From positions 20,458 to 84,457 of the IMG/VR virus record IMGVR_UViG_3300005253_000186: a stretch of 64,000 nt of DNA. The stretch is one strand, 5' to 3'. This document shows, one piece after another, positions 33,712 through 43,746 of the stretch; the stretch's first letter is position 1; each line of letters opens with the position of its first letter. The position numbers and the translations under genes are program-made. The stretch is from a virus. The notes beneath the pieces were generated by a model. The model did not search any database. It was not told the origin of the DNA and saw nothing but the letters and a program-made list of their open reading frames with translations.

Positions 33712-34071
33712 TGGTGGAGGTGCCCGGATTCGAACCGGGGTCTTGAAATGCATCCAAATGCGCGTTTACGTGCGTAGAAGGTTCTGATCGCCTTCGGCCT
33801 TTGGTCAACAGATTCCAGCAAGATCGCCTAGGCCTACACGGCGAATTATGTCTCAATCACCTGAACGCCGAACGCAGATGATCCAGTCGTAGTTCGTCCG
33901 ATCTCCAGCTACGACGACAACCTCGCCGGGATCGGGACTACCTATTCCTAGGCAGCCATGCGGTAGCCGTTGTCGGCACCTAATTTGTCATCGGATTTTT
34001 ACGTGGCCTTCCGATGAACCACGGCACGAAGCAACATTCTTCCTCATCCAATCGATTCCTATATCACCCCC
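33712..34071 (-). ncRNA. ssrA: tmRNA
   Basis: GGGGGTG...CACCTCC-ACCA acceptor with G3:U70, T-arm, tag ORF 33948-33977 ADNGYRMAA*. Confidence 0.92.
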
Positions 34072-37375: not shown

Positions 37376-37567
37376 ATAGTCTTGACAATTCGTTCTGACG
37401 GGCCCACAGAAGACGGACTCTCTGCAAACGAGTCCTGGGCTTGAACTCTGCGTCAAGAGCAGGTTGCAGCACTTTCTTTCGCTTCTTCTTTGGCTCCCAC
37501 GGTTTCCAGTTTCTGTTCTGGTTCAGCGGGTGCGTCGGATCACAATCTATCATCGCGATCACCCCAC

Positions 37568-37706
37568 AAAAAAACCCTGCGCGCCGGTTGTCCGGCAGCA
37601 GGGTTGCTTTCGGTCAACCGCAAGGGGATTAGAGATCCCAACCCCCGACAAAACCTACTTCGGGCTTGGTCTCGGCCATCTGTGGTCGTGTCGTCTTGCG
37701 GTACAT
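37568..37706 (-). promoter_or_regulatory. leader peptide (37629-37706) plus antiterminator/terminator attenuator
   Basis: 25-codon ORF; CGGTTGACCG after the stop pairs 9/10 with CGGACAACCG inside the terminator hairpin, which ends in a U-tract. Confidence 0.65.
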
Positions 37707-37715
37707 AGTTCTAGC

Positions 37716-37745
37716 ACTGTACGACATGGCGGGAAGGGCTGTCAA
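37716..37745 (-). promoter_or_regulatory. sigma70-type promoter for tRNA cluster
   Basis: TTGACA-18-TACAGT. Confidence 0.65.
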
Positions 37746-37759
37746 GACGCAATTTGAGA

Positions 37760-38269
37760 TTAGTTCAGGCACAATCTGAAAAGATCGGCCCCGGGAAGGC
37801 TGGGCGGGCCATCCCACTGCGTATTGAACGGTTTATCCATCTTCTCGCGATCGAGTTCCCCCCTGGTGTCTGGCAGGACCATCCTTAACACGGTCCTTCC
37901 GCTCTCTTGTGCTTCTATTAGCGCAACATCCATGTTCTTAATTATATCGGAGAGCCTGTCTCCCGCCTTGAATTTCTCTCCCGATTTGATCTTCTCGATG
38001 GCGAGACCGAACAGATTGTGCGCCAAGACCGGAGGCATGGGAGCAACAATCTGAAGATCAGGATGGCCGAAACTTTCGAGGCATCCATGAGTATGATAAT
38101 TGACTCCCGTGGGCGTCTGATCGTCACCACCGCCAATCGCGTGGCAGTACCATCCGTGGTCCTCGATATTTTTCTTCTGCTTTTCCTCTATCTCCTGAAT
38201 GGACTTCTCTTTTGTTTCGTCATCGAGATTACACAGGCCGCAATTGCAACCCCTAGCGTGGACTCTCAT
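37760..38269 (-). CDS. DUF4262-like protein
   Basis: IEDHGWYCHAI...YHTHGCLESFGHPDLQI. Confidence 0.65.
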   Translation of the reverse strand: MRVHARGCNCGLCNLDDETKEKSIQEIEEKQKKNIEDHGWYCHAIGGGDDQTPTGVNYHTHGCLESFGHPDLQIVAPMPPVLAHNLFGLAIEKIKSGEKFKAGDRLSDIIKNMDVALIEAQESGRTVLRMVLPDTRGELDREKMDKPFNTQWDGPPSLPGADLFRLCLN

Positions 38270-38306
38270 GTCTGTAGCCTCCTGCGGCTCATCAATAACC
38301 GATGGC

Positions 38307-38510
38307 TCACCATGTTCTCCTATCCAGTCTGCGCTGAATCGTAATCGAAGCGTCCCGCATAGCCTTGATGCCAACCTCTATGATCGTTCTGTCGTGCGGT
38401 TCCGCTGTCTTCAATCTACGTTCTGCGTCAGCTATCTGAATATTGAGAAGCCTGATCTTCTTTTCAAGCTTATCCTCCCGGTTTTTCGATCGATGAATCG
38501 CTCGAAACAT
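38307..38510 (-). CDS. small coiled-coil protein
   Basis: ORF track. Confidence 0.5.
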   Translation of the reverse strand: MFRAIHRSKNREDKLEKKIRLLNIQIADAERRLKTAEPHDRTIIEVGIKAMRDASITIQRRLDRRTW

Positions 38511-38701
38511 TCATACCACCCCGACTTCTCAGACAAGAAGCGCTCCTTGCCATTGATAATACCGATAGACGGCCCAGGGGGAAAGGGTTTAATCGGAAGT
38601 CCGTCGGGCGAGATACCATCGTTCAGCAACTGCTCATACTTTCTCCACTTCAAGATCTCCGGGCCGTCGAAAGTTCGTTTCCTCTTTTTCTTCTTCGCCA
38701 T
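38432..38701 (-). CDS. hypothetical basic protein
   Basis: AGGAGG RBS. Confidence 0.5.
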   Translation of the reverse strand: MAKKKKRKRTFDGPEILKWRKYEQLLNDGISPDGLPIKPFPPGPSIGIINGKERFLSEKSGWYECFERFIDRKTGRISLKRRSGFSIFR

Positions 38702-38714
38702 GAAGCCTCCTGGT

Positions 38715-38765
38715 AAAAAAAGTGGGGAGGTGGAGGAACACGGCCTAGGCCGGCCCTCCCCACTT
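38715..38765 (-). terminator. intrinsic terminator ending the array/RAMP-like operon
   Basis: AAGTGGGGAGG...CCTCCCCACTT followed by U-tract. Confidence 0.7.
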
Positions 38766-38771
38766 GGTACC

Positions 38772-39413
38772 TTATGCTCGTATCTCTACGAGCTCGAAAG
38801 CTCCGAACTTGCCGCCCCTTTCGGGGCGCCACTCGCCAATGCCGACAGAGCGACCGGCCCTGTCGACTATTGATGCGAGGTCATCCGGCCGCAGAAGATC
38901 TTGGTCAATATCTGCCTTGACGACCATCTCCCAGCCTTTCGGAAAAATGGCTCTGGTCTTCTCGATCATCTTTCTTCCGCTACCGCGTGTGGCGATGTTA
39001 ACTTCCGCCGTATACGGCTTCGGAACAACCTTCGTGACTGGGATAACATCTTCGGGAACATGAACCGCTGCACGAATCAAGTCTCGAAGATCCCAGTCTT
39101 TCACCTCATGGGCCATTCTAGTGCATGCCAGCTTCACGTAGTATCCCGGCATGCCGTACTTCCCATGCTTTCTTTCACTCCACTTCTCCCGACCATCAAC
39201 AGGGCAGAGCGCCTGCTTGAACTGCTCGTCGGGAGTCATCTTCCCGAACACCTTCGGGTCGATTCGGCAGTTACGGATTTCTCCGTGTTTTGTCCGCCAG
39301 TTGCTGCACAGAAGATCTGAGATCCCTCGGATGACGATCTCGATGCTGGTCATCACCATCTTCGGGATATAGACTCTTCCGCCTTGTTGCATCGTTGCCT
39401 GTTCCATGATCAT
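38772..39413 (-). CDS. RAMP/Cas7-like protein, paralogue 2 (Vipr-like)
   Basis: IEIVIRGISDLL first strand; C-terminal G-rich loop RAGRSVGIGEWRPERGGKFGAF; collinear with 39495-40265. Confidence 0.7.
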   Translation of the reverse strand: MIMEQATMQQGGRVYIPKMVMTSIEIVIRGISDLLCSNWRTKHGEIRNCRIDPKVFGKMTPDEQFKQALCPVDGREKWSERKHGKYGMPGYYVKLACTRMAHEVKDWDLRDLIRAAVHVPEDVIPVTKVVPKPYTAEVNIATRGSGRKMIEKTRAIFPKGWEMVVKADIDQDLLRPDDLASIVDRAGRSVGIGEWRPERGGKFGAFELVEIRA

Positions 39414-39494
39414 CCCTCCAGAGAAAGCGGGAGGAGAGGATTCCCGCGGGGGCGAGTTAGTCCTCTCCTCCCAGACAGCACGGAAGAACGCCAG

Positions 39495-40265
39495 CTACTT
39501 CCGTCCGCTGCCCTTTTTGTAGATGATGGGGAAGGCCTCATTCCGGGAGAACAATCTCTTCTTGGGGGCCTTCGTATGCTTCATGGAGACGGGCTCGAAC
39601 CGGCCCATCATCCCATTGCAGGACGGCCTCCAGTCCCCGACACCGACACTCATCCCGGCGCGATATAGAAGATTGAACACCGAGATCTCGTCGATGATCG
39701 ACTTGTCGATGCTCATTACGATGTTCGCCTCCCATTCTGCGGGGAAGCACCCGCGGAAGCGAATGTCCGCGCTCTTGCTTGACGGGAGACGGACCACGTC
39801 TTGCCGATTGTAGGGCGTCATGTTCTCGATCCCCACCACATCGTCTTCCACGAAGAAGCAACCGCGAGCATACGTCATGTTGAGCCCTTCAACGTATCTG
39901 GCAGCTCCGACGCATGCCTGCTTGAAGGCGTGGCCGGCAAGACCGAACTTTCCGGGCTTGTTATCCTTCCACTTCTCCCGCCCGGGCACGACGTAGAGGG
40001 ACTCCATGTACTCCTGGATGGGTTCCCGCAATCCTCTCTTCGGACGAGAGACGTTCATCTGGTTGTCGAGGATTTTCCTTTGGGCCGCAGCCCCGAACCG
40101 ATGCGTGATCAAGGGCGACAGGCCGATGATGTGGATGATGTAGTAAACCCAATCCGGCTTGATGATCTCGATCGTCTTGTTCTCGGCATCCTTGCCGGTC
40201 TTCTTTGCGACCTTCTTGGTCGTCTTCTTTTTCGTGCTCTTCTTTCTCGCTGTCTGTACAGCCAT
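39495..40265 (-). CDS. RAMP/Cas7-like protein, paralogue 1 (Vipr-like)
   Basis: IHIIGLSPLITH, AFKQACVGAA, DVVRL...ADIRFRGCF, G-rich loop RAGMSVGVGDWRPSCNGMMGRF. Confidence 0.75.
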   Translation of the reverse strand: MAVQTARKKSTKKKTTKKVAKKTGKDAENKTIEIIKPDWVYYIIHIIGLSPLITHRFGAAAQRKILDNQMNVSRPKRGLREPIQEYMESLYVVPGREKWKDNKPGKFGLAGHAFKQACVGAARYVEGLNMTYARGCFFVEDDVVGIENMTPYNRQDVVRLPSSKSADIRFRGCFPAEWEANIVMSIDKSIIDEISVFNLLYRAGMSVGVGDWRPSCNGMMGRFEPVSMKHTKAPKKRLFSRNEAFPIIYKKGSGRK

Positions 40266-40379
40266 GTCAAAGACTCCTTCTGGGGTGTGGGACCTTTCGG
40301 CCTCCGGTGATTCATAACTTTATAGATTCTCCGAGTCCTCCGCCTCGGTAATTTGTGTTGGTGAGCAAAATGAACTGAT

Positions 40380-42147
40380 CCAGCCGTAACCTAGCATACC
40401 TGATCGCGCCAAGACGGGCGATGACCTGCCTCCCAGCCACGCCCCGCCGAAGATGGCTTTGACAGCCACCTATGTAAGAGAGGATGTGGGCCCAGAGTCC
40501 TCTGAATTTCTTATACCGTATTTCCAGCCCGGACAAAACGTGCCCTACCGTTCCACACCGCTCCGTGCCAAGCCTACCAGCCTTAACCCGCCTGAACGTG
40601 CGCGACCCTCCCCGACGAGACTTGCACTCCAGCCGTACCCTAGCCCGCCAATTCATAACGCGCAGCAACAGGCTCCGCCCAACAGCGACCTGCCTTCCAG
40701 CCATGCCCCGACGAACATAACGGATCCCCGACCCGACCTGGCGAGCCGAGCCTAGCCGTCCAGCCATACCCTGCCACAACGAAACGGACCTTTCCAGACA
40801 CCTCCGTGCCATCCAGCCGTAACCCGCCGAACCTACCCTAGCCTAACCGATCCGTGCCACAACGTGCCGAACCATACCATCCAGCCGCACCATGCAATTC
40901 CGGACCCAGCAATGCCACTCCGGGCAGAGCCGAGCCTTCCAGCCGTACCTCTACGGGACGTGCCTAGCACTGCCGATCAGCACCATCCACGCCTTCCAGC
41001 CTCAACACAACGTCCCAGGACTAACCTCGCCAAGACCAACCTTCCAGCCTCGCTTCGCTAGCCTTGACGAGCCGTACCGGTCAGCGACGAGCCCGTCCCA
41101 AACTTACCCTCCAGCCGCAACCCACAATAACAGGCCAAGGCCCGACAGGCGGCACCTGACCGCACCTACCAGCCATAACGCGCAGCGCCTAGCCCAACGG
41201 CACCCTGACGCACTTCGCCAGTCCTCCCAGCCAAACCCGAACAGAATAAAACGGATCATACAGAACACTTCCGTGCCGTGCCGTGCAGAACCTAGCCCTC
41301 CAGCCATACCGCACCGAGCCTGTCCGGGTCACGCGGGAACAAGACACACGATGCCATCCAGCCGTACAGGAACACGCCGTGCCGAGCGCGAACCAAACGC
41401 AACCTACGCGGACCAACCACCCAGCCGTAACATGACCCTCGGCAACCAACAGTGACGTGACCAACCCGAACGCACCCAACCATCCAGCCTAGACACAACC
41501 GATCTCGACTTTCCAAGCCAAGCCGAGCCTGACCCTCCAGCCACAACTAGACAAAACAATCCGCCCAAACGGCAACCCCGCCTAATCACGCCATCCAGCC
41601 ATGAGATAACGAGCGCGGCCATGCCGGAACGTGCCCGGACGAACCTAGCCCAACCGGTCCGAACCTTCCAGCCCCACATGAACCCACAGGGCCTAGCCCC
41701 GACGCGCCAGATCCAGACGAGCCTAGACACACCGACCAGCCGTAACTTACCATGCCATTGCGCGCCTAACGCAACGGGCCTCATCCTGCCATCCAGCCAC
41801 ACCCGGATAAATCCGGACAAACCTAACCCGGAGCCGCCCTTCCAACCAGCCGTACCGGGACAAAACAATCCGGGACGGGACGAGCCTTGCCTATCCACGC
41901 CCCTCCAGCCATAACCCGCTCAGACGAACCCGGACTCGCATGACCCTCCTCGCCTCTCCGTCCAGCCGTGCCAAACAACGCCGCAACACAACCCAGCACA
42001 ACACGCAAGGCCTGGCCTGGCCTACCAGCCGTAACATCCCCTCCATGACAGACGGTGACGTACCCATCCAGGGCGCACCATGCCATCTCCAGCCATACCC
42101 CGCCGTACACTGACGAACCCAAACGTTCCAGAACGTGCCAGCCAGCC
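40380..42147 (-). repeat. non-coding array of 30 GGCTGG-delimited units made of GGY-NN pentamers (candidate guide-RNA array)
   Basis: CCAGCC on + strand at 30 positions; 21 of 29 spacings are 48/53/58/63/68/73 nt (5n+3). Confidence 0.9.
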
Positions 42148-42849
42148 TTAATCGCCACCCGCTGAGTCGCGGTGACGAGAAAGATAGATCTTCCTCGGGC
42201 GCTTCTGGTGCTTCCGCTCCTTGTTGATGCCGGACAGGATCGAATCGCACTTGCCCCTGATGGTATTGCACAGCTTCGCGAGAACCTTCATGTACTGATA
42301 CTTATCGGCGATATGACGGAGATCATTCGCGGCGTTAATTAGCGCCTGCTGGCGCATGTCCGGATCAGACATGACCTCGAAGGTCGGAAAGTAACGCCGA
42401 TCCGTCTGACGATCTCCGGTCTGGATGGAGATCATAATCGGTGACTCGATCATCTGCCCTCTTGCGTCCGTGTCGATCACGATGATCGAACGGCAGAGAT
42501 ACTTGGCCTGTTCAATGCGCCACTTGTCCGCTGCGACCTTGTTGACCCAATCAAAATAAGGGTTGAGCGGAGAGGATCCTTGGGACGCCGCGCTAACGAT
42601 GTTCTCCGGCGTGCAGTCAACGCCACTGGATGCCAGGTCATACAGGGCGGCGCCATACGTCTTGGCCTCCACCTTGTTCAGGCGTGCTCCTGGACCAGGC
42701 TTGAAATCTCGATTATCAATGTGGACGGATCCGTTGACCCATACGACTTCGTGCGGACCCTTGGCCTTCGGTGGCTTTCTGGCCGATTTCCTCTTAGAGG
42801 ACTTCTTCTTGTCTTTCGCCTTCTTTACTGTCTTCTTCTTCTTTGCCAA
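42148..42849 (-). CDS. conserved phage protein co-transcribed with the array
   Basis: TPENIVSAA...SPLNPYFDW...AADKWRIEQAKYLCRSI; stop codon abuts first array unit; GGTATAAG promoter at 42897. Confidence 0.75.
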   Translation of the reverse strand: MAKKKKTVKKAKDKKKSSKRKSARKPPKAKGPHEVVWVNGSVHIDNRDFKPGPGARLNKVEAKTYGAALYDLASSGVDCTPENIVSAASQGSSPLNPYFDWVNKVAADKWRIEQAKYLCRSIIVIDTDARGQMIESPIMISIQTGDRQTDRRYFPTFEVMSDPDMRQQALINAANDLRHIADKYQYMKVLAKLCNTIRGKCDSILSGINKERKHQKRPRKIYLSRHRDSAGGD

Positions 42850-42908
42850 CTTCGGTCTCCTGTTCTGAGGGGATCAAAAGAAAACGCTACAGTCTTCTTA
42901 TACCGGAA

Positions 42909-43271
42909 TCAGGTAGCGCCAATCGCCTGCTTCATTGCGTAGGCCATTTTAATGAACACGCCCTCGAACATCTTCTCGATGATCTTGTCGGCGTGCTCAG
43001 CAACAACTTCCTTGAACAGACCAGCAGGATCTCCCCAGGTGGATCCCCAGTAATCCATATCGGAAACCTGAGTCCGGATCATCTCCTTGATGCGCTTGTC
43101 GAGCGCCTCTTTGATCCAATTCTCAAGTTCGCGTTTTCTGCTCCCGGTGACGAGCTCGTAGATCTGGCCCCGGACCATCTTGTCCCATTCTTCTTCGGGA
43201 ATTGCCTCTGTGATATAGTGGGCGACCTTCTGCGCGACGATCGCCTGGATATTCATCTCACCCGCGTCCAT
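42909..43271 (-). CDS. hypothetical helical protein
   Basis: start reassigned to MDAGEM. Confidence 0.55.
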   Translation of the reverse strand: MDAGEMNIQAIVAQKVAHYITEAIPEEEWDKMVRGQIYELVTGSRKRELENWIKEALDKRIKEMIRTQVSDMDYWGSTWGDPAGLFKEVVAEHADKIIEKMFEGVFIKMAYAMKQAIGAT

Positions 43272-43746
43272 CCTTTGCCTTTCCGATCTCCGCGTATTCG
43301 CCTGGGTACCAGGGATACTCGGTTGGATCTCTATGGTAGACGCCGCCCGTTGCCGTTTGGTCGAACATGGCATACGCCTTGAGCCTAGGAAGGGCATCTG
43401 AAGATATTTCCTCCTTGAGCTCCCGGGCTGTCACCCATCTGTATTCGGTGTGCTCGGAGTTTATCGTAACCTCTGGGTCGATGACCATCGTAGCCTTGAA
43501 AATAACGAAGACGAATGTCCCCCCGTTATCCGTCCCGTTCGAGAACACCATCGCGATCTTCGTCGGTCGGATCTCGAACCCGGTCTCCTCAAGAACCTCT
43601 CTTGCTGCTGCCTGCTCCAGGTTTTCGGGTGGTTCAACCTTGCCTCCAGGAAAGTTCCACTTCCCGTTATCCGACCTCCTGAGGACCAGGACTCTGCGAT
43701 CGCGCATTCTTTGGATTACTGTCGATACGGCTACTTTAGGCTCCAT
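43258..43746 (-). CDS. Nudix hydrolase
   Basis: Nudix box GGKVEPPENLEQAAAREVLEETG. Confidence 0.92.
   Translation of the reverse strand: MEPKVAVSTVIQRMRDRRVLVLRRSDNGKWNFPGGKVEPPENLEQAAAREVLEETGFEIRPTKIAMVFSNGTDNGGTFVFVIFKATMVIDPEVTINSEHTEYRWVTARELKEEISSDALPRLKAYAMFDQTATGGVYHRDPTEYPWYPGEYAEIGKAKDGRG

What the first reader, a model, noticed from the sequence alone, without database searches (positions are those of the whole stretch)
38772..40265. Two diverged RAMP-like paralogues in tandem, separated by a 13-bp-stem hairpin
The proteins align along their length (GREKWKDNKPGKFG vs GREKWSERKHGKYG; FPAEWE vs FPKGWE; RAGMSVGVGDWRP vs RAGRSVGIGEWRP). The second lacks the basic termini and part of the N-terminal insert. 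A strong hairpin (GGGAGGAGAGGA...TCCTCTCCTCCC, ~39429-39472) lies between them and could set an unequal ratio. Inference: backbone plus end-capping or processing subunit, similar to Cas7 versus Cas5/Cas6 specialisation.
Basis: partly seen in the sequence, partly recalled or inferred. Interest (0 to 1): 0.72.

Follow-up and report, generated by a model that had tools for sequence, protein, structure and literature searches.

The report
Phage VIPR locus with two Vipr paralogues
The two neighbouring genes are diverged copies of Vipr, the guide-RNA-binding protein of the recently described phage VIPR gene-silencing system, which normally has only one, so this locus may show how a one-protein RNA-guided machine starts to split into specialised subunits as CRISPR complexes did.

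Summary
Observation confirmed. Two minus-strand ORFs, A (39495-40265, 256 aa) and B (38772-39413, 213 aa), are paralogues (31% identity over 156 aa, E 4e-24). A 12-bp perfect stem, 13 with a G-U pair, lies between them at 39429-39472.

They are not CRISPR proteins. A 24-sequence family profile hits the solved SUSP1 Vipr protein at E 1e-13. Vipr is the single RAMP-like effector of VIPR systems (bioRxiv 10.64898/2026.04.26.720920). The rest of the system lies upstream:
- a conserved vap partner gene (42148-42849);
- a 29-unit GGYNN pentamer guide array (40385-42147).

The window is part of a large marine-sediment phage with 33 tRNA genes.

A second Vipr is rare: 0 of 124 unique IMG/VR Vipr loci and 0 of 34 cultured-phage records have one. 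B is not decaying. It keeps the RNA-binding Arg and G-loop E-W-R. Close relatives from two other studies differ less in B (4.0-5.2%) than in A (about 6-7%).

Promoter-like motifs and hairpins suggest one A-B transcript with partial termination after A. The cap or processing role for B is plausible but untested. An earlier scan note on this same DNA also called the array VIPR. Verdict: new variant of a known kind.

The parts
42897..42904 (-). GGTATAAG promoter-like motif about 48 nt upstream of the vap start (P1)
   Evidence: The motif occurs 18 times in the window against 0.52 expected. Seventeen lie on the minus strand, where the genes run over most of the window, and the single plus-strand site lies where long ORFs and GC skew switch to plus. 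Sites sit 20-70 nt before Shine-Dalgarno sites and starts, or directly before tRNA genes. That it is a promoter is inferred.
42148..42849 (-). vap-type accessory gene (233 aa, Lys-rich N-terminus); its stop abuts the first array unit
   Evidence: phrog_15946, E 2.4e-12. It is homologous to the gene next to vipr in L016, E 4e-11. In a 3-round iterated search (jackhmmer), members of this family lie within 1 kb of vipr on the same strand in 76 of 81 IMG/VR loci.
40385..42147 (-). vrRNA array: 29 units that each start GGCU-GGAN and continue as G(G/U)Y-NN pentamers
   Evidence: 31 of the 51 minus-strand GGCTGG sites fall in this region, and 0 of the 22 plus-strand sites do. Unit length is 3 mod 5 in 20 of 29 units, binomial p 1.6e-8. 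G-G-Y periodicity persists to position 45. No Rfam family matched.
40510..40517 (-). second GGTATAAG promoter-like motif (P2), inside the irregular 91-nt unit, about 245 nt upstream of viprA
   Evidence: A transcript from here would carry the last array units, viprA, the hairpin and viprB. This is inferred.
39495..40265 (-). viprA: canonical Vipr paralogue with K/R-rich N- and C-terminal tails (256 aa), AAGGAG Shine-Dalgarno site, TAG stop
   Evidence: phrog_4652, E 1.4e-14. Family profile against SUSP1 Vipr, E 1e-13. H55, R171, D211, W212 and R213 align with SUSP1 H17, R138, D177, W178 and R179. It keeps 44 of 55 family-conserved columns. Orthologues P0002-P0005 and P0028 also carry the tails, except the shorter P0005, which lacks the N-terminal one.
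39429..39472 (-). intergenic hairpin: 12 Watson-Crick pairs plus one G-U pair and an inner 5-bp stem, followed on the RNA by CUUUCUCU, then the GGAGGG Shine-Dalgarno site and the viprB start
   Evidence: The terminator scan did not list it; I attribute this to its 20-nt loop exceeding the scan's 3-8 nt limit, since its tail meets the scan's rule of 5 U in 8.
38772..39413 (-). viprB: tail-less, more diverged Vipr paralogue (213 aa, or 211 aa from the ATG at 39407)
   Evidence: phrog_4652, E 2.2e-10. phmmer against PDB 36pp, E 0.0064, over the G-loop. R154, E194, W195 and R196 are kept; the strand-1 His is Ser or Asn. The B-type clade P0018-P0023 has 60 invariant columns across 7 sequences. It keeps 36 of 55 family-conserved columns.
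38715..38765 (-). intrinsic terminator after viprB: an 11-bp perfect stem (38720-38730 with 38755-38765) and then a run of seven U
   Evidence: plus the sequence. An AGGAGG Shine-Dalgarno site and the ATG of the next gene (38701) follow.

Best explanation
The finding is the protein half of a VIPR (Viral Interference Programmable Repeat) system in a large marine-sediment phage.

Gene order on the minus strand: promoter-like motif, vap, 29-unit vrRNA array, a second promoter-like motif inside the array, viprA, hairpin, viprB, terminator.

Shown:
- Both proteins are Vipr homologues and each other's closest relatives.
- Both keep the residues that hold the GG of each GGY-NN pentamer in the SUSP1 structure.
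- The array has the pentamer code.
- B is conserved.
- A second Vipr is rare among related loci.

Inferred:
- A and B are co-transcribed from the promoter-like motif at 40510-40517.
- The terminator-like hairpin stops part of the transcripts, so A is made in excess.
- A, with its basic tails, forms the one-protomer-per-pentamer filament on each guide, as published for SUSP1 Vipr.
- B joins the same ribonucleoprotein as a minor subunit, most likely at the guide boundary. There this array has two 4-nt steps (GGCU, GGAN; a purine at the usual pyrimidine position in 23 of 29 units), whereas most single-Vipr relatives have one.
- The complex then silences DNA of competing mobile elements by gapped base pairing, as published.

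My confidence by level: 0.93 that this is a VIPR locus with two Vipr paralogues; about 0.6 that A is made in excess over B; about 0.4 that B is a specialised subunit of the same complex.
For: Family. A 24-sequence profile hits PDB 36pp 'SUSP1 Vipr protein' at E 1e-13 over profile positions 60-209. B alone hits it at E 0.0064 and A alone at 0.1. The equivalents of R138, D177, W178 and R179 are kept in A and in all B-type sequences that span these columns (the 164-aa P0029 ends before the G-loop), with E for D in B.

System. GGY-NN periodicity and 5n+3 unit lengths in 20 of 29 units. The vap family is adjacent to vipr in 76 of 81 IMG/VR loci.

Paralogy.
- BLASTP E 4e-24.
- With a B-type profile searched against 1.84 billion representatives, only 3 hits reach 1e-30 (all B-type). 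The next best is A-type P0002 (118.8 bits, against 99.5 for the one after).
- A tree that holds A and B together has a log-likelihood 61 higher than the free quick tree, p-AU 0.90.
- A and B share the GREKW insert.

Constraint on B.
- 60 invariant columns across 7 B-type sequences at 45-93% identity.
- In Logan contigs of runs X4 and X5 (two other studies), B shows 22 differences in 552 nt and 37 in 712 nt. Pieces of A show 6-7% (one 165-nt piece shows 17%). All indels listed inside the two genes are in frame: 3 nt and 12 nt, both in A.

Pair elsewhere. A-type P0004 (63% identity) and B-type P0019 (52%) each sit on a single ENA contig of 31,836 nt.

Expression layout. GGTATAAG occurs 18 times against 0.52 expected. 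There are sites before vap and inside the array, and none between A and B. The hairpin is followed by a weak U-tract after A, and a hairpin plus U7 follows B.

Punctuation. Single-Vipr loci mostly use GGCAGGC with unit length 4 mod 5 (24 of 40 assessable loci; 12 mixed; 2 with 3 mod 5; 1 with 0; 1 with 2).
Against: - No expression, processing or binding data exist. No RNA run holds the stretch.
- Related single-Vipr loci have the same kind of contiguous array, so a second subunit is not needed for that architecture.
- The link between punctuation and copy number rests on one two-copy locus, and 2 of 40 single-copy loci also show 5n+3.
- B's changed residues are not unique. Asn at the strand-1 His position occurs in 32 of 164 other Viprs, and an aliphatic residue at the F114 pocket position in 58 of 164.
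- In the free quick tree A and B are not sisters, and B sits on a long branch of 1.42.
- That P0004 and P0019 share a contig is inferred from equal contig length only.
- B-type P0022 and P0023 (contigs of 28,374 and 16,348 nt) have no A-type hit on a contig of the same length among the 17 hits or the 120 listed of 211.
- B has its own strong Shine-Dalgarno site, so the protein ratio need not follow the transcript ratio.
Confidence: 0.5

Rival explanations
1. Two independent effectors. A and B each form their own homomeric filament on guides from the shared array or from guides elsewhere. The diverged second copy gives redundancy, for example against competitors whose own vrRNAs silence the vipr gene.
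For: B keeps all core GG-binding residues, is basic (pI 9.26), is full length and is constrained. Single Viprs suffice for similar arrays. Two of the preprints report vrRNAs that target other VIPR systems (section and abstract read).
Against: The arrangement is tight and same-strand, with no promoter-like motif of B's own. B is never seen in IMG/VR as a lone Vipr: scans with B, with the B-type alignment and with P0022 found none. B has lost 19 of the 55 family-conserved columns, including thumb positions R159, D167 and R169.
Confidence: 0.25
2. B is a regulator or decoy rather than an effector. It binds the array-derived leader of its own mRNA, or rivals' vrRNAs, without building a silencing filament.
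For: B lacks the basic tails of A and has altered thumb residues. A 2026 preprint describes competition for Vipr by foreign vrRNAs (abstract read).
Against: Nothing direct. The RNA-binding G-loop and Arg are kept exactly as in effector Viprs. No precedent is described in the main texts I searched.
Confidence: 0.1
3. B is a redundant duplicate drifting towards loss.
For: B is the more diverged copy (36 of 55 conserved columns kept against 44 of 55; long branch). It lies behind a terminator-like hairpin.
Against: The B-type clade has 7 full-length clusters plus the 164-aa P0029, at 45-93% identity, with 60 invariant columns. Close relatives differ less in B than in A and show no frame-breaking indel. 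B has a strong Shine-Dalgarno site and a terminator of its own.
Confidence: 0.05
4. Low-level read-through of the TAG stop of A makes an A-linker-B fusion that fixes the ratio of the two.
For: A and B are in the same frame, with one TAG and 27 stop-free codons between them. No indel is listed in the covered part of the gap in relatives.
Against: Same frame with no stop is expected by chance about 9% of the time (my arithmetic: 1/3 times (61/64)^27). B has its own Shine-Dalgarno site and ATG. TAG ends 25 of 74 long ORFs, and no suppressor tRNA is among the 33 tRNAs. The hairpin starts 22 nt after the stop, which by my recollection is farther than known read-through stimulators.
Confidence: 0.05

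Closest known systems
Type II VIPR of Escherichia phage SUSP1 (Vipr, vap1 and vrRNAs; PDB 36pp; bioRxiv 10.64898/2026.04.26.720920 and 10.64898/2026.04.26.720927)
   Same: Homologous Vipr protein with the R, D/E, W, R residues that hold GG. Guides are built of GGY-NN pentamers. An accessory gene lies adjacent. The system is phage-encoded.
   Different: SUSP1 has one vipr, four vrRNAs of about 100 nt, and a conserved 3' tail with a pseudoknot. Here there are two diverged vipr genes and 29 contiguous units of 48-73 nt with only an 8-nt boundary (GGCU GGAN). The vap is of another family (I did not compare it with vap1). Similarity to SUSP1 Vipr needs a profile to detect.
VIPR systems with contiguous or 'staggered' vrRNA arrays (legend of Fig. 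S18 of the discovery preprint; IMG/VR loci such as L016 and L004)
   Same: Same Vipr clade (32-39% identity to A), same vap family, and back-to-back guides with a short GG-containing boundary.
   Different: Those loci have a single vipr followed directly by vap and then the array. Their boundary is mostly GGCAGGC with unit length 5n+4. Here the order is vap, array, viprA, viprB, with unit length 5n+3.
Class 1 CRISPR-Cas effector RAMPs (Cas7 backbone, Cas5 cap, Cas6 processing)
   Same: The published view is that Vipr and Cas5/6/7 share the RAMP fold and RNA-binding mode. Two diverged RAMP paralogues in one operon beside the guide array resembles Cas7/Cas5 specialisation in layout.
   Different: There are no CRISPR repeats or spacers and no cas1, cas2 or other cas genes. 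Guides are pentamer-coded. No evidence yet shows that B caps or cleaves.

Membership tests
VIPR system (Vipr + vrRNA + vap) | Protein homologous to characterised Vipr | tested here: met
   Profile of 24 family members against PDB 36pp SUSP1 Vipr: E 1e-13, 54.6 bits. B alone E 0.0064, A alone E 0.1. Both match phrog_4652.
VIPR system (Vipr + vrRNA + vap) | GGY-binding residues of the SUSP1 structure (H17, R138, D177, W178, R179) | tested here: met
   A has H55, R171, D211, W212 and R213. B has Ser or Asn at the His position, plus R154, E194, W195 and R196. Among the other Viprs E is the commonest residue at the D177 position (89 of 164), and Asn occurs at the His position in 32 of 164.
VIPR system (Vipr + vrRNA + vap) | RAMP fold (RRM core, G-loop, thumb) | not testable with these tools
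The ESM Atlas's own model of B (pTM 0.77) matches only unnamed viral clusters, TM 0.74-0.80. The fold is inferred from homology.
VIPR system (Vipr + vrRNA + vap) | Adjacent non-coding region with tandem YNNGG / GGY-NN pentamers (at least 4 units, the preprint's criterion) | tested here: met
   29 units at 40385-42147. G-G-Y periodicity at 5 nt holds over positions 8-45. Unit lengths are 5n+3 in 20 of 29 units, p 1.6e-8.
VIPR system (Vipr + vrRNA + vap) | Accessory vap gene in the locus | tested here: met
   The family of the protein at 42148-42849 lies within 1 kb of vipr in 76 of 81 IMG/VR loci. Which of the published vap1-6 it is could not be determined, because the supplements are closed.
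VIPR system (Vipr + vrRNA + vap) | A single Vipr protein per system (as described in the main text) | tested here: not met
   Two paralogues are present here. This is the point of difference. It is a description in the preprint, not a stated definition.
VIPR system (Vipr + vrRNA + vap) | RNA-guided DNA binding and silencing by the 1-nt-skip rule | not testable with these tools
   Needs small-RNA sequencing, pull-down and reporter assays. I did not attempt target prediction for the 29 guides.
Class 1 CRISPR-Cas | CRISPR array of direct repeats and spacers, plus cas genes | tested here: not met
   Tandem Repeats Finder reports no repeat with a period above 15 nt in 39500-43000. The only fixed element is the 6-8 nt GGCTGG(A). 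Pfam gave nothing for A and B. PADLOC gave only chance-level hits for A, B and two neighbours.

The most novel reading that the evidence does not exclude
This is a natural two-RAMP VIPR effector. viprB is a dedicated once-per-guide subunit that reads the extra 4-nt 'GGAN' step at each guide boundary. By capping, nucleating or delimiting the viprA filament, it defines guide ends in a tail-less array. Its dose is set by the terminator-like hairpin. That would be a living example of the step the VIPR-to-CRISPR model postulates: duplication and specialisation of the ancestral RAMP into backbone and cap. It would have occurred inside a virus, before any capture by a host.
Probability: 0.3. Interest if true: 0.8.

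Novelty: new variant of a known kind. Interest (0 to 1): 0.6.

Why it matters
VIPR was described in 2026 as a minimal system with one small protein and one guide. Its authors propose that CRISPR class 1 effectors arose when such an ancestral RAMP duplicated and specialised.

A phage locus that carries two diverged and constrained Vipr paralogues behind one array offers a direct, cheap test of whether that specialisation already happens within VIPR. Both genes and one guide can be expressed in E. coli.

It could also show how guide boundaries are set in arrays whose guides lack the structured 3' tail. For tool building, a defined cap subunit could fix filament length and guide ends.

Tried and rejected
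Sequence libraries. Pfam gave nothing for A or B. NCBIfam and PADLOC gave only chance-level hits.

Relatives of the pair in collections. Scans found no B-type locus and only one distant A relative, L001: IMG/VR with B, the B-type alignment, the A-type alignment and P0022, and JGI metagenome contigs with the B-type alignment. I therefore could not check whether the pair, the hairpin or the punctuation are conserved on DNA of the roughly 50-60% relatives.

Expression. No RNA holder is listed for the stretch, so nothing can be said about expression.

Synonymous versus non-synonymous changes. The differences printed by read laying are too few. Only 40 of 227 are shown, giving 2 synonymous and 4 non-synonymous in B and 12 and 12 in A. 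I used difference densities per contig piece instead.

Idea: A and B read different pentamers (GGY versus GUY), or alternate along the guide.
- GU pentamers are commoner at odd positions (38 against 18). The effect weakens once the fixed first pentamer is removed, and the tag strings show no strict alternation.
- The array's GU share (0.29 against a median of 0.11) is matched by 2 of 55 single-Vipr loci.
- Rejected as evidence.

Idea: B has a changed base pocket (His to Asn or Ser; Phe114 to Val). The same residues occur in 32 of 164 and 58 of 164 other Viprs. This is not diagnostic.

TAG recoding. TAG ends 25 of 74 long ORFs, and no suppressor tRNA is present. Rejected.

Rfam. No family matched in 37500-43500 at E up to 1, so there are no hammerhead-interspersed guides.

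Literature.
- In the discovery preprint the terms paralog, two vipr, copies, vipr genes, homodimer and heterodimer gave 0 occurrences; 'duplicat' gave one, the Discussion's proposal of RAMP duplication.
- In the structure preprint paralog and heteromer gave 0 occurrences, and 'two vipr' gave 2, of which the one shown refers to adjacent protomers.
- In the competition preprint paralog, two vipr, second vipr, vipr2, jumbo and huge phage gave 0 occurrences.
- In the fourth preprint I searched only for 'VIPR' and read 12 of 13 passages; none mentions two Viprs.
- Library searches for papers on VIPR are.
The type tables and locus figures (Fig. 5A, figs S16-S18, data S4) may already show two-vipr loci.
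Full report
**What is there.**
The window is part of an 84,457-nt IMG/VR virus record, estimated 51% complete. It carries 33 tRNA genes and a tmRNA. Near-identical DNA occurs in marine-sediment metagenomes.

At the finding's coordinates two minus-strand ORFs follow each other: A (39495-40265, 256 aa) and B (38772-39413, 213 aa). A has Lys/Arg-rich N- and C-terminal tails that B lacks.

The 81-nt gap between them holds a 12-nt perfect inverted repeat at 39429-39472. It folds into 13 pairs (the outer one G-U) with an inner 5-bp stem. It is the only perfect inverted repeat of that size in the 64 kb; simulated sequences give a mean of 0.27 per 64 kb.

**What the proteins are.**
Pfam, NCBIfam and PADLOC give nothing useful. 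Both proteins match phrog_4652, of unknown function.

B alone gives a weak hit to PDB 36pp, 'SUSP1 Vipr protein' (E 0.0064), across the motif G-x-G-D/E-W-R-P. A profile of 24 homologues raises this to E 1e-13 over most of the protein.

Vipr is the effector of VIPR systems, described in 2026 preprints. I read the results sections and one methods section of 10.64898/2026.04.26.720920. I read one results section of 10.64898/2026.04.26.720927. I read the abstract and outline of 10.64898/2026.10.15.759431, and passages of 10.64898/2026.10.21.760802.

According to these, Vipr is a RAMP homologue. It polymerises one protomer per pentamer on vrRNAs made of GGY-NN repeats, and it silences double-stranded DNA by gapped pairing.

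The residues named in the SUSP1 structure map as follows:

| SUSP1 | A | B |
|---|---|---|
| H17 | H55 | Ser or Asn |
| R138 | R171 | R154 |
| D177 | D211 | E194 |
| W178 | W212 | W195 |
| R179 | R213 | R196 |

Neither change in B is unusual in the family. Glu is the commonest residue at the D177 position, and Asn occurs at the His position in 32 of 164 other Viprs.

The RAMP fold therefore rests on homology.

**The rest of the system.**
Upstream on the same strand lies an array of about 1.8 kb (40385-42147). It holds 31 of the 51 minus-strand GGCTGG sites in the window and none of the 22 plus-strand ones.

Cut at that motif, it gives 29 units. Each starts GGCU-GGAN and continues as G(G/U)Y-NN pentamers, in register out to position 45. 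Unit length is 3 mod 5 in 20 of 29 units (p 1.6e-8).

Directly upstream, with its stop abutting the first unit, is a 233-aa protein (42148-42849). Its family lies within 1 kb of vipr, on the same strand, in 76 of 81 IMG/VR Vipr loci. It is the vap-type partner of this clade. Rfam finds no known RNA in the region.

An earlier follow-up note of this scan (e1-6118478) reached the same reading for the array.

**Transcription layout (inferred).**
The octamer GGTATAAG occurs 18 times against 0.52 expected. Seventeen sites are on the minus strand, where the genes run over most of the window. They typically sit 20-70 nt before a Shine-Dalgarno site and start, or directly before a tRNA gene.

One copy precedes vap (42897-42904). 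One lies inside the only irregular array unit (40510-40517), about 245 nt before viprA. None lies between A and B.

On the RNA, the hairpin after A is followed by CUUUCUCU, then GGAGGG and the start of B. After B an 11-bp stem is followed by seven U.

The simplest reading is one A-B transcript with partial termination after A and full termination after B. No RNA data exist to test this.

**Are the two copies a real, maintained pair?**
- *Two clades.* Database searches recover an A-type clade (own, P0002-P0005, P0028; most with basic tails) and a B-type clade (own, P0018-P0023, P0025, P0029).
- *Closest relatives of each other.* With a B-type profile searched against 1.84 billion representatives, 2,427 proteins score at E 0.001 or better. 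Only three reach 1e-30, all B-type. The next best is an A-type protein (118.8 bits, against 99.5 for the following one).
- *Tree.* Each clade has 100% support. The quick free tree does not join them. A tree that holds them together has a log-likelihood 61 higher (p-AU 0.90), so one clade is not rejected and fits better. B sits on a long branch, which is a caveat.
- *Shared insert.* Both share the GREKW insert, which the other Viprs in the alignment lack.
- *Constraint on B.* Seven B-type sequences at 45-93% identity share 60 invariant columns.
- *Near relatives.* Logan contigs from two other studies (X4, X5) hold 90-95% relatives of both genes. B shows 22 differences in 552 nt and 37 in 712 nt. 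Pieces of A show 6-7% (one 165-nt piece shows 17%). The indels listed inside the two genes are in frame: 3 nt and 12 nt, both in A.
- *More distant relatives.* A-type P0004 and B-type P0019 each sit on a single ENA contig of 31,836 nt. This suggests the pair persists at about 60% and 50% identity.

**How unusual is a second Vipr?**
In 124 unique IMG/VR loci with a Vipr homologue, none has a second Vipr ORF within the DNA held; 90 of them have at least 1.5 kb on both sides. All 34 cultured-phage records with a match to A have one place each.

The discovery preprint describes loci as 'typically' one vipr plus one vap. It contrasts this with CRISPR's 'often multiple RAMPs' and says VIPR needs 'only a single small protein'. 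Term searches of the main texts found no mention of paralogous Viprs. The supplements were closed and may show otherwise.

**What B might do.**
A looks like the standard subunit. It keeps 44 of 55 family-conserved columns and lies upstream of the hairpin. B keeps 36 of 55, with changes clustered after strand 1 and in the thumb region (R159, D167, R169).

One architectural correlate exists. Single-Vipr relatives with contiguous arrays mostly mark guide boundaries with GGCAGGC and have unit length 5n+4. This holds in 24 of 40 assessable loci; 12 are mixed and 2 are 5n+3 (example L016).

This locus has two short steps, GGCU and GGAN. The second carries a purine (A or G) in 23 of 29 units at the position where the published pocket excludes purines. 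One extra short step per guide alongside one extra paralogue fits a once-per-guide subunit.

That rests on a single two-copy locus, and I found no residue signature in B that explains purine acceptance. Equally, the single-Vipr arrays show that a second subunit is not required for tail-less contiguous arrays.

I therefore put the specialised-subunit model at about 0.4. Independent parallel effectors get 0.25, and a regulator or decoy role 0.1. A decaying duplicate gets 0.05, as does a read-through fusion.

**Comparison and verdict.**
The locus meets the tested defining features of VIPR: Vipr homology, GG-binding residues, a pentamer array, a vap partner and viral origin. It fails the features of CRISPR-Cas. 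It departs from described VIPR loci in three ways:
- it has two diverged Vipr paralogues;
- its gene order is vap, array, viprA, viprB;
- its guide punctuation gives unit lengths of 5n+3.

It is a new variant of a known kind. It matters because the published evolutionary model needs exactly such a RAMP duplication and specialisation, and this pair is small enough to test directly.

Noticed in passing
window 39414-39497: viprA and viprB are in the same reading frame. They are separated by a single TAG and 27 codons without a stop, so read-through of that TAG would give an A-linker-B fusion. I estimate about a 9% chance of this arising by accident. TAG is a normal stop elsewhere (25 of 74 long ORFs).
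   Followed up: partly
window, 18 sites (e.g. 4322, 20078, 27743, 42897, 45511, 57721): GGTATAAG occurs 18 times against 0.52 expected. Seventeen sites lie on the minus strand, where the genes run over most of the window. Sites sit just upstream of Shine-Dalgarno sites and starts, or of tRNA genes. It is probably the phage's promoter -10 element.
   Followed up: partly
window 9010-37067: 33 tRNA genes and a tmRNA (33712-34071), all on the minus strand. This is a very large translation-related gene set for a record estimated at half a genome.
   Followed up: no
window 38432-38701, 42148-42849, 39495-40265: Three proteins of the neighbourhood start with Lys-rich tails: MAKKKKRKR in the 89-aa ORF, MAKKKKTVKKAKDKKK in vap, and the tail of viprA. 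This may be a shared DNA-binding or targeting feature.
   Followed up: no
window 37760-38374 and 43258-43746: Flanking genes are a DUF4262 protein (E 2.7e-14) downstream of the locus and a NUDIX hydrolase (E 6.4e-22) upstream.
   Followed up: no
window 40385-42147 versus runs X4 and X5: Relatives that are 90-95% identical in both vipr genes align to the array only in pieces, with skips of 258 and 780 nt and one back-step. This suggests a different guide content between strains, as with CRISPR arrays. Joints at this likeness threshold can also come from the repeats themselves.
   Followed up: no
P0176 (JGI, contig of 230,188 nt): The closest non-A-type relative of viprA (42% identity) sits on a 230-kb contig, probably another very large phage. 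Its locus could not be fetched.
   Followed up: partly
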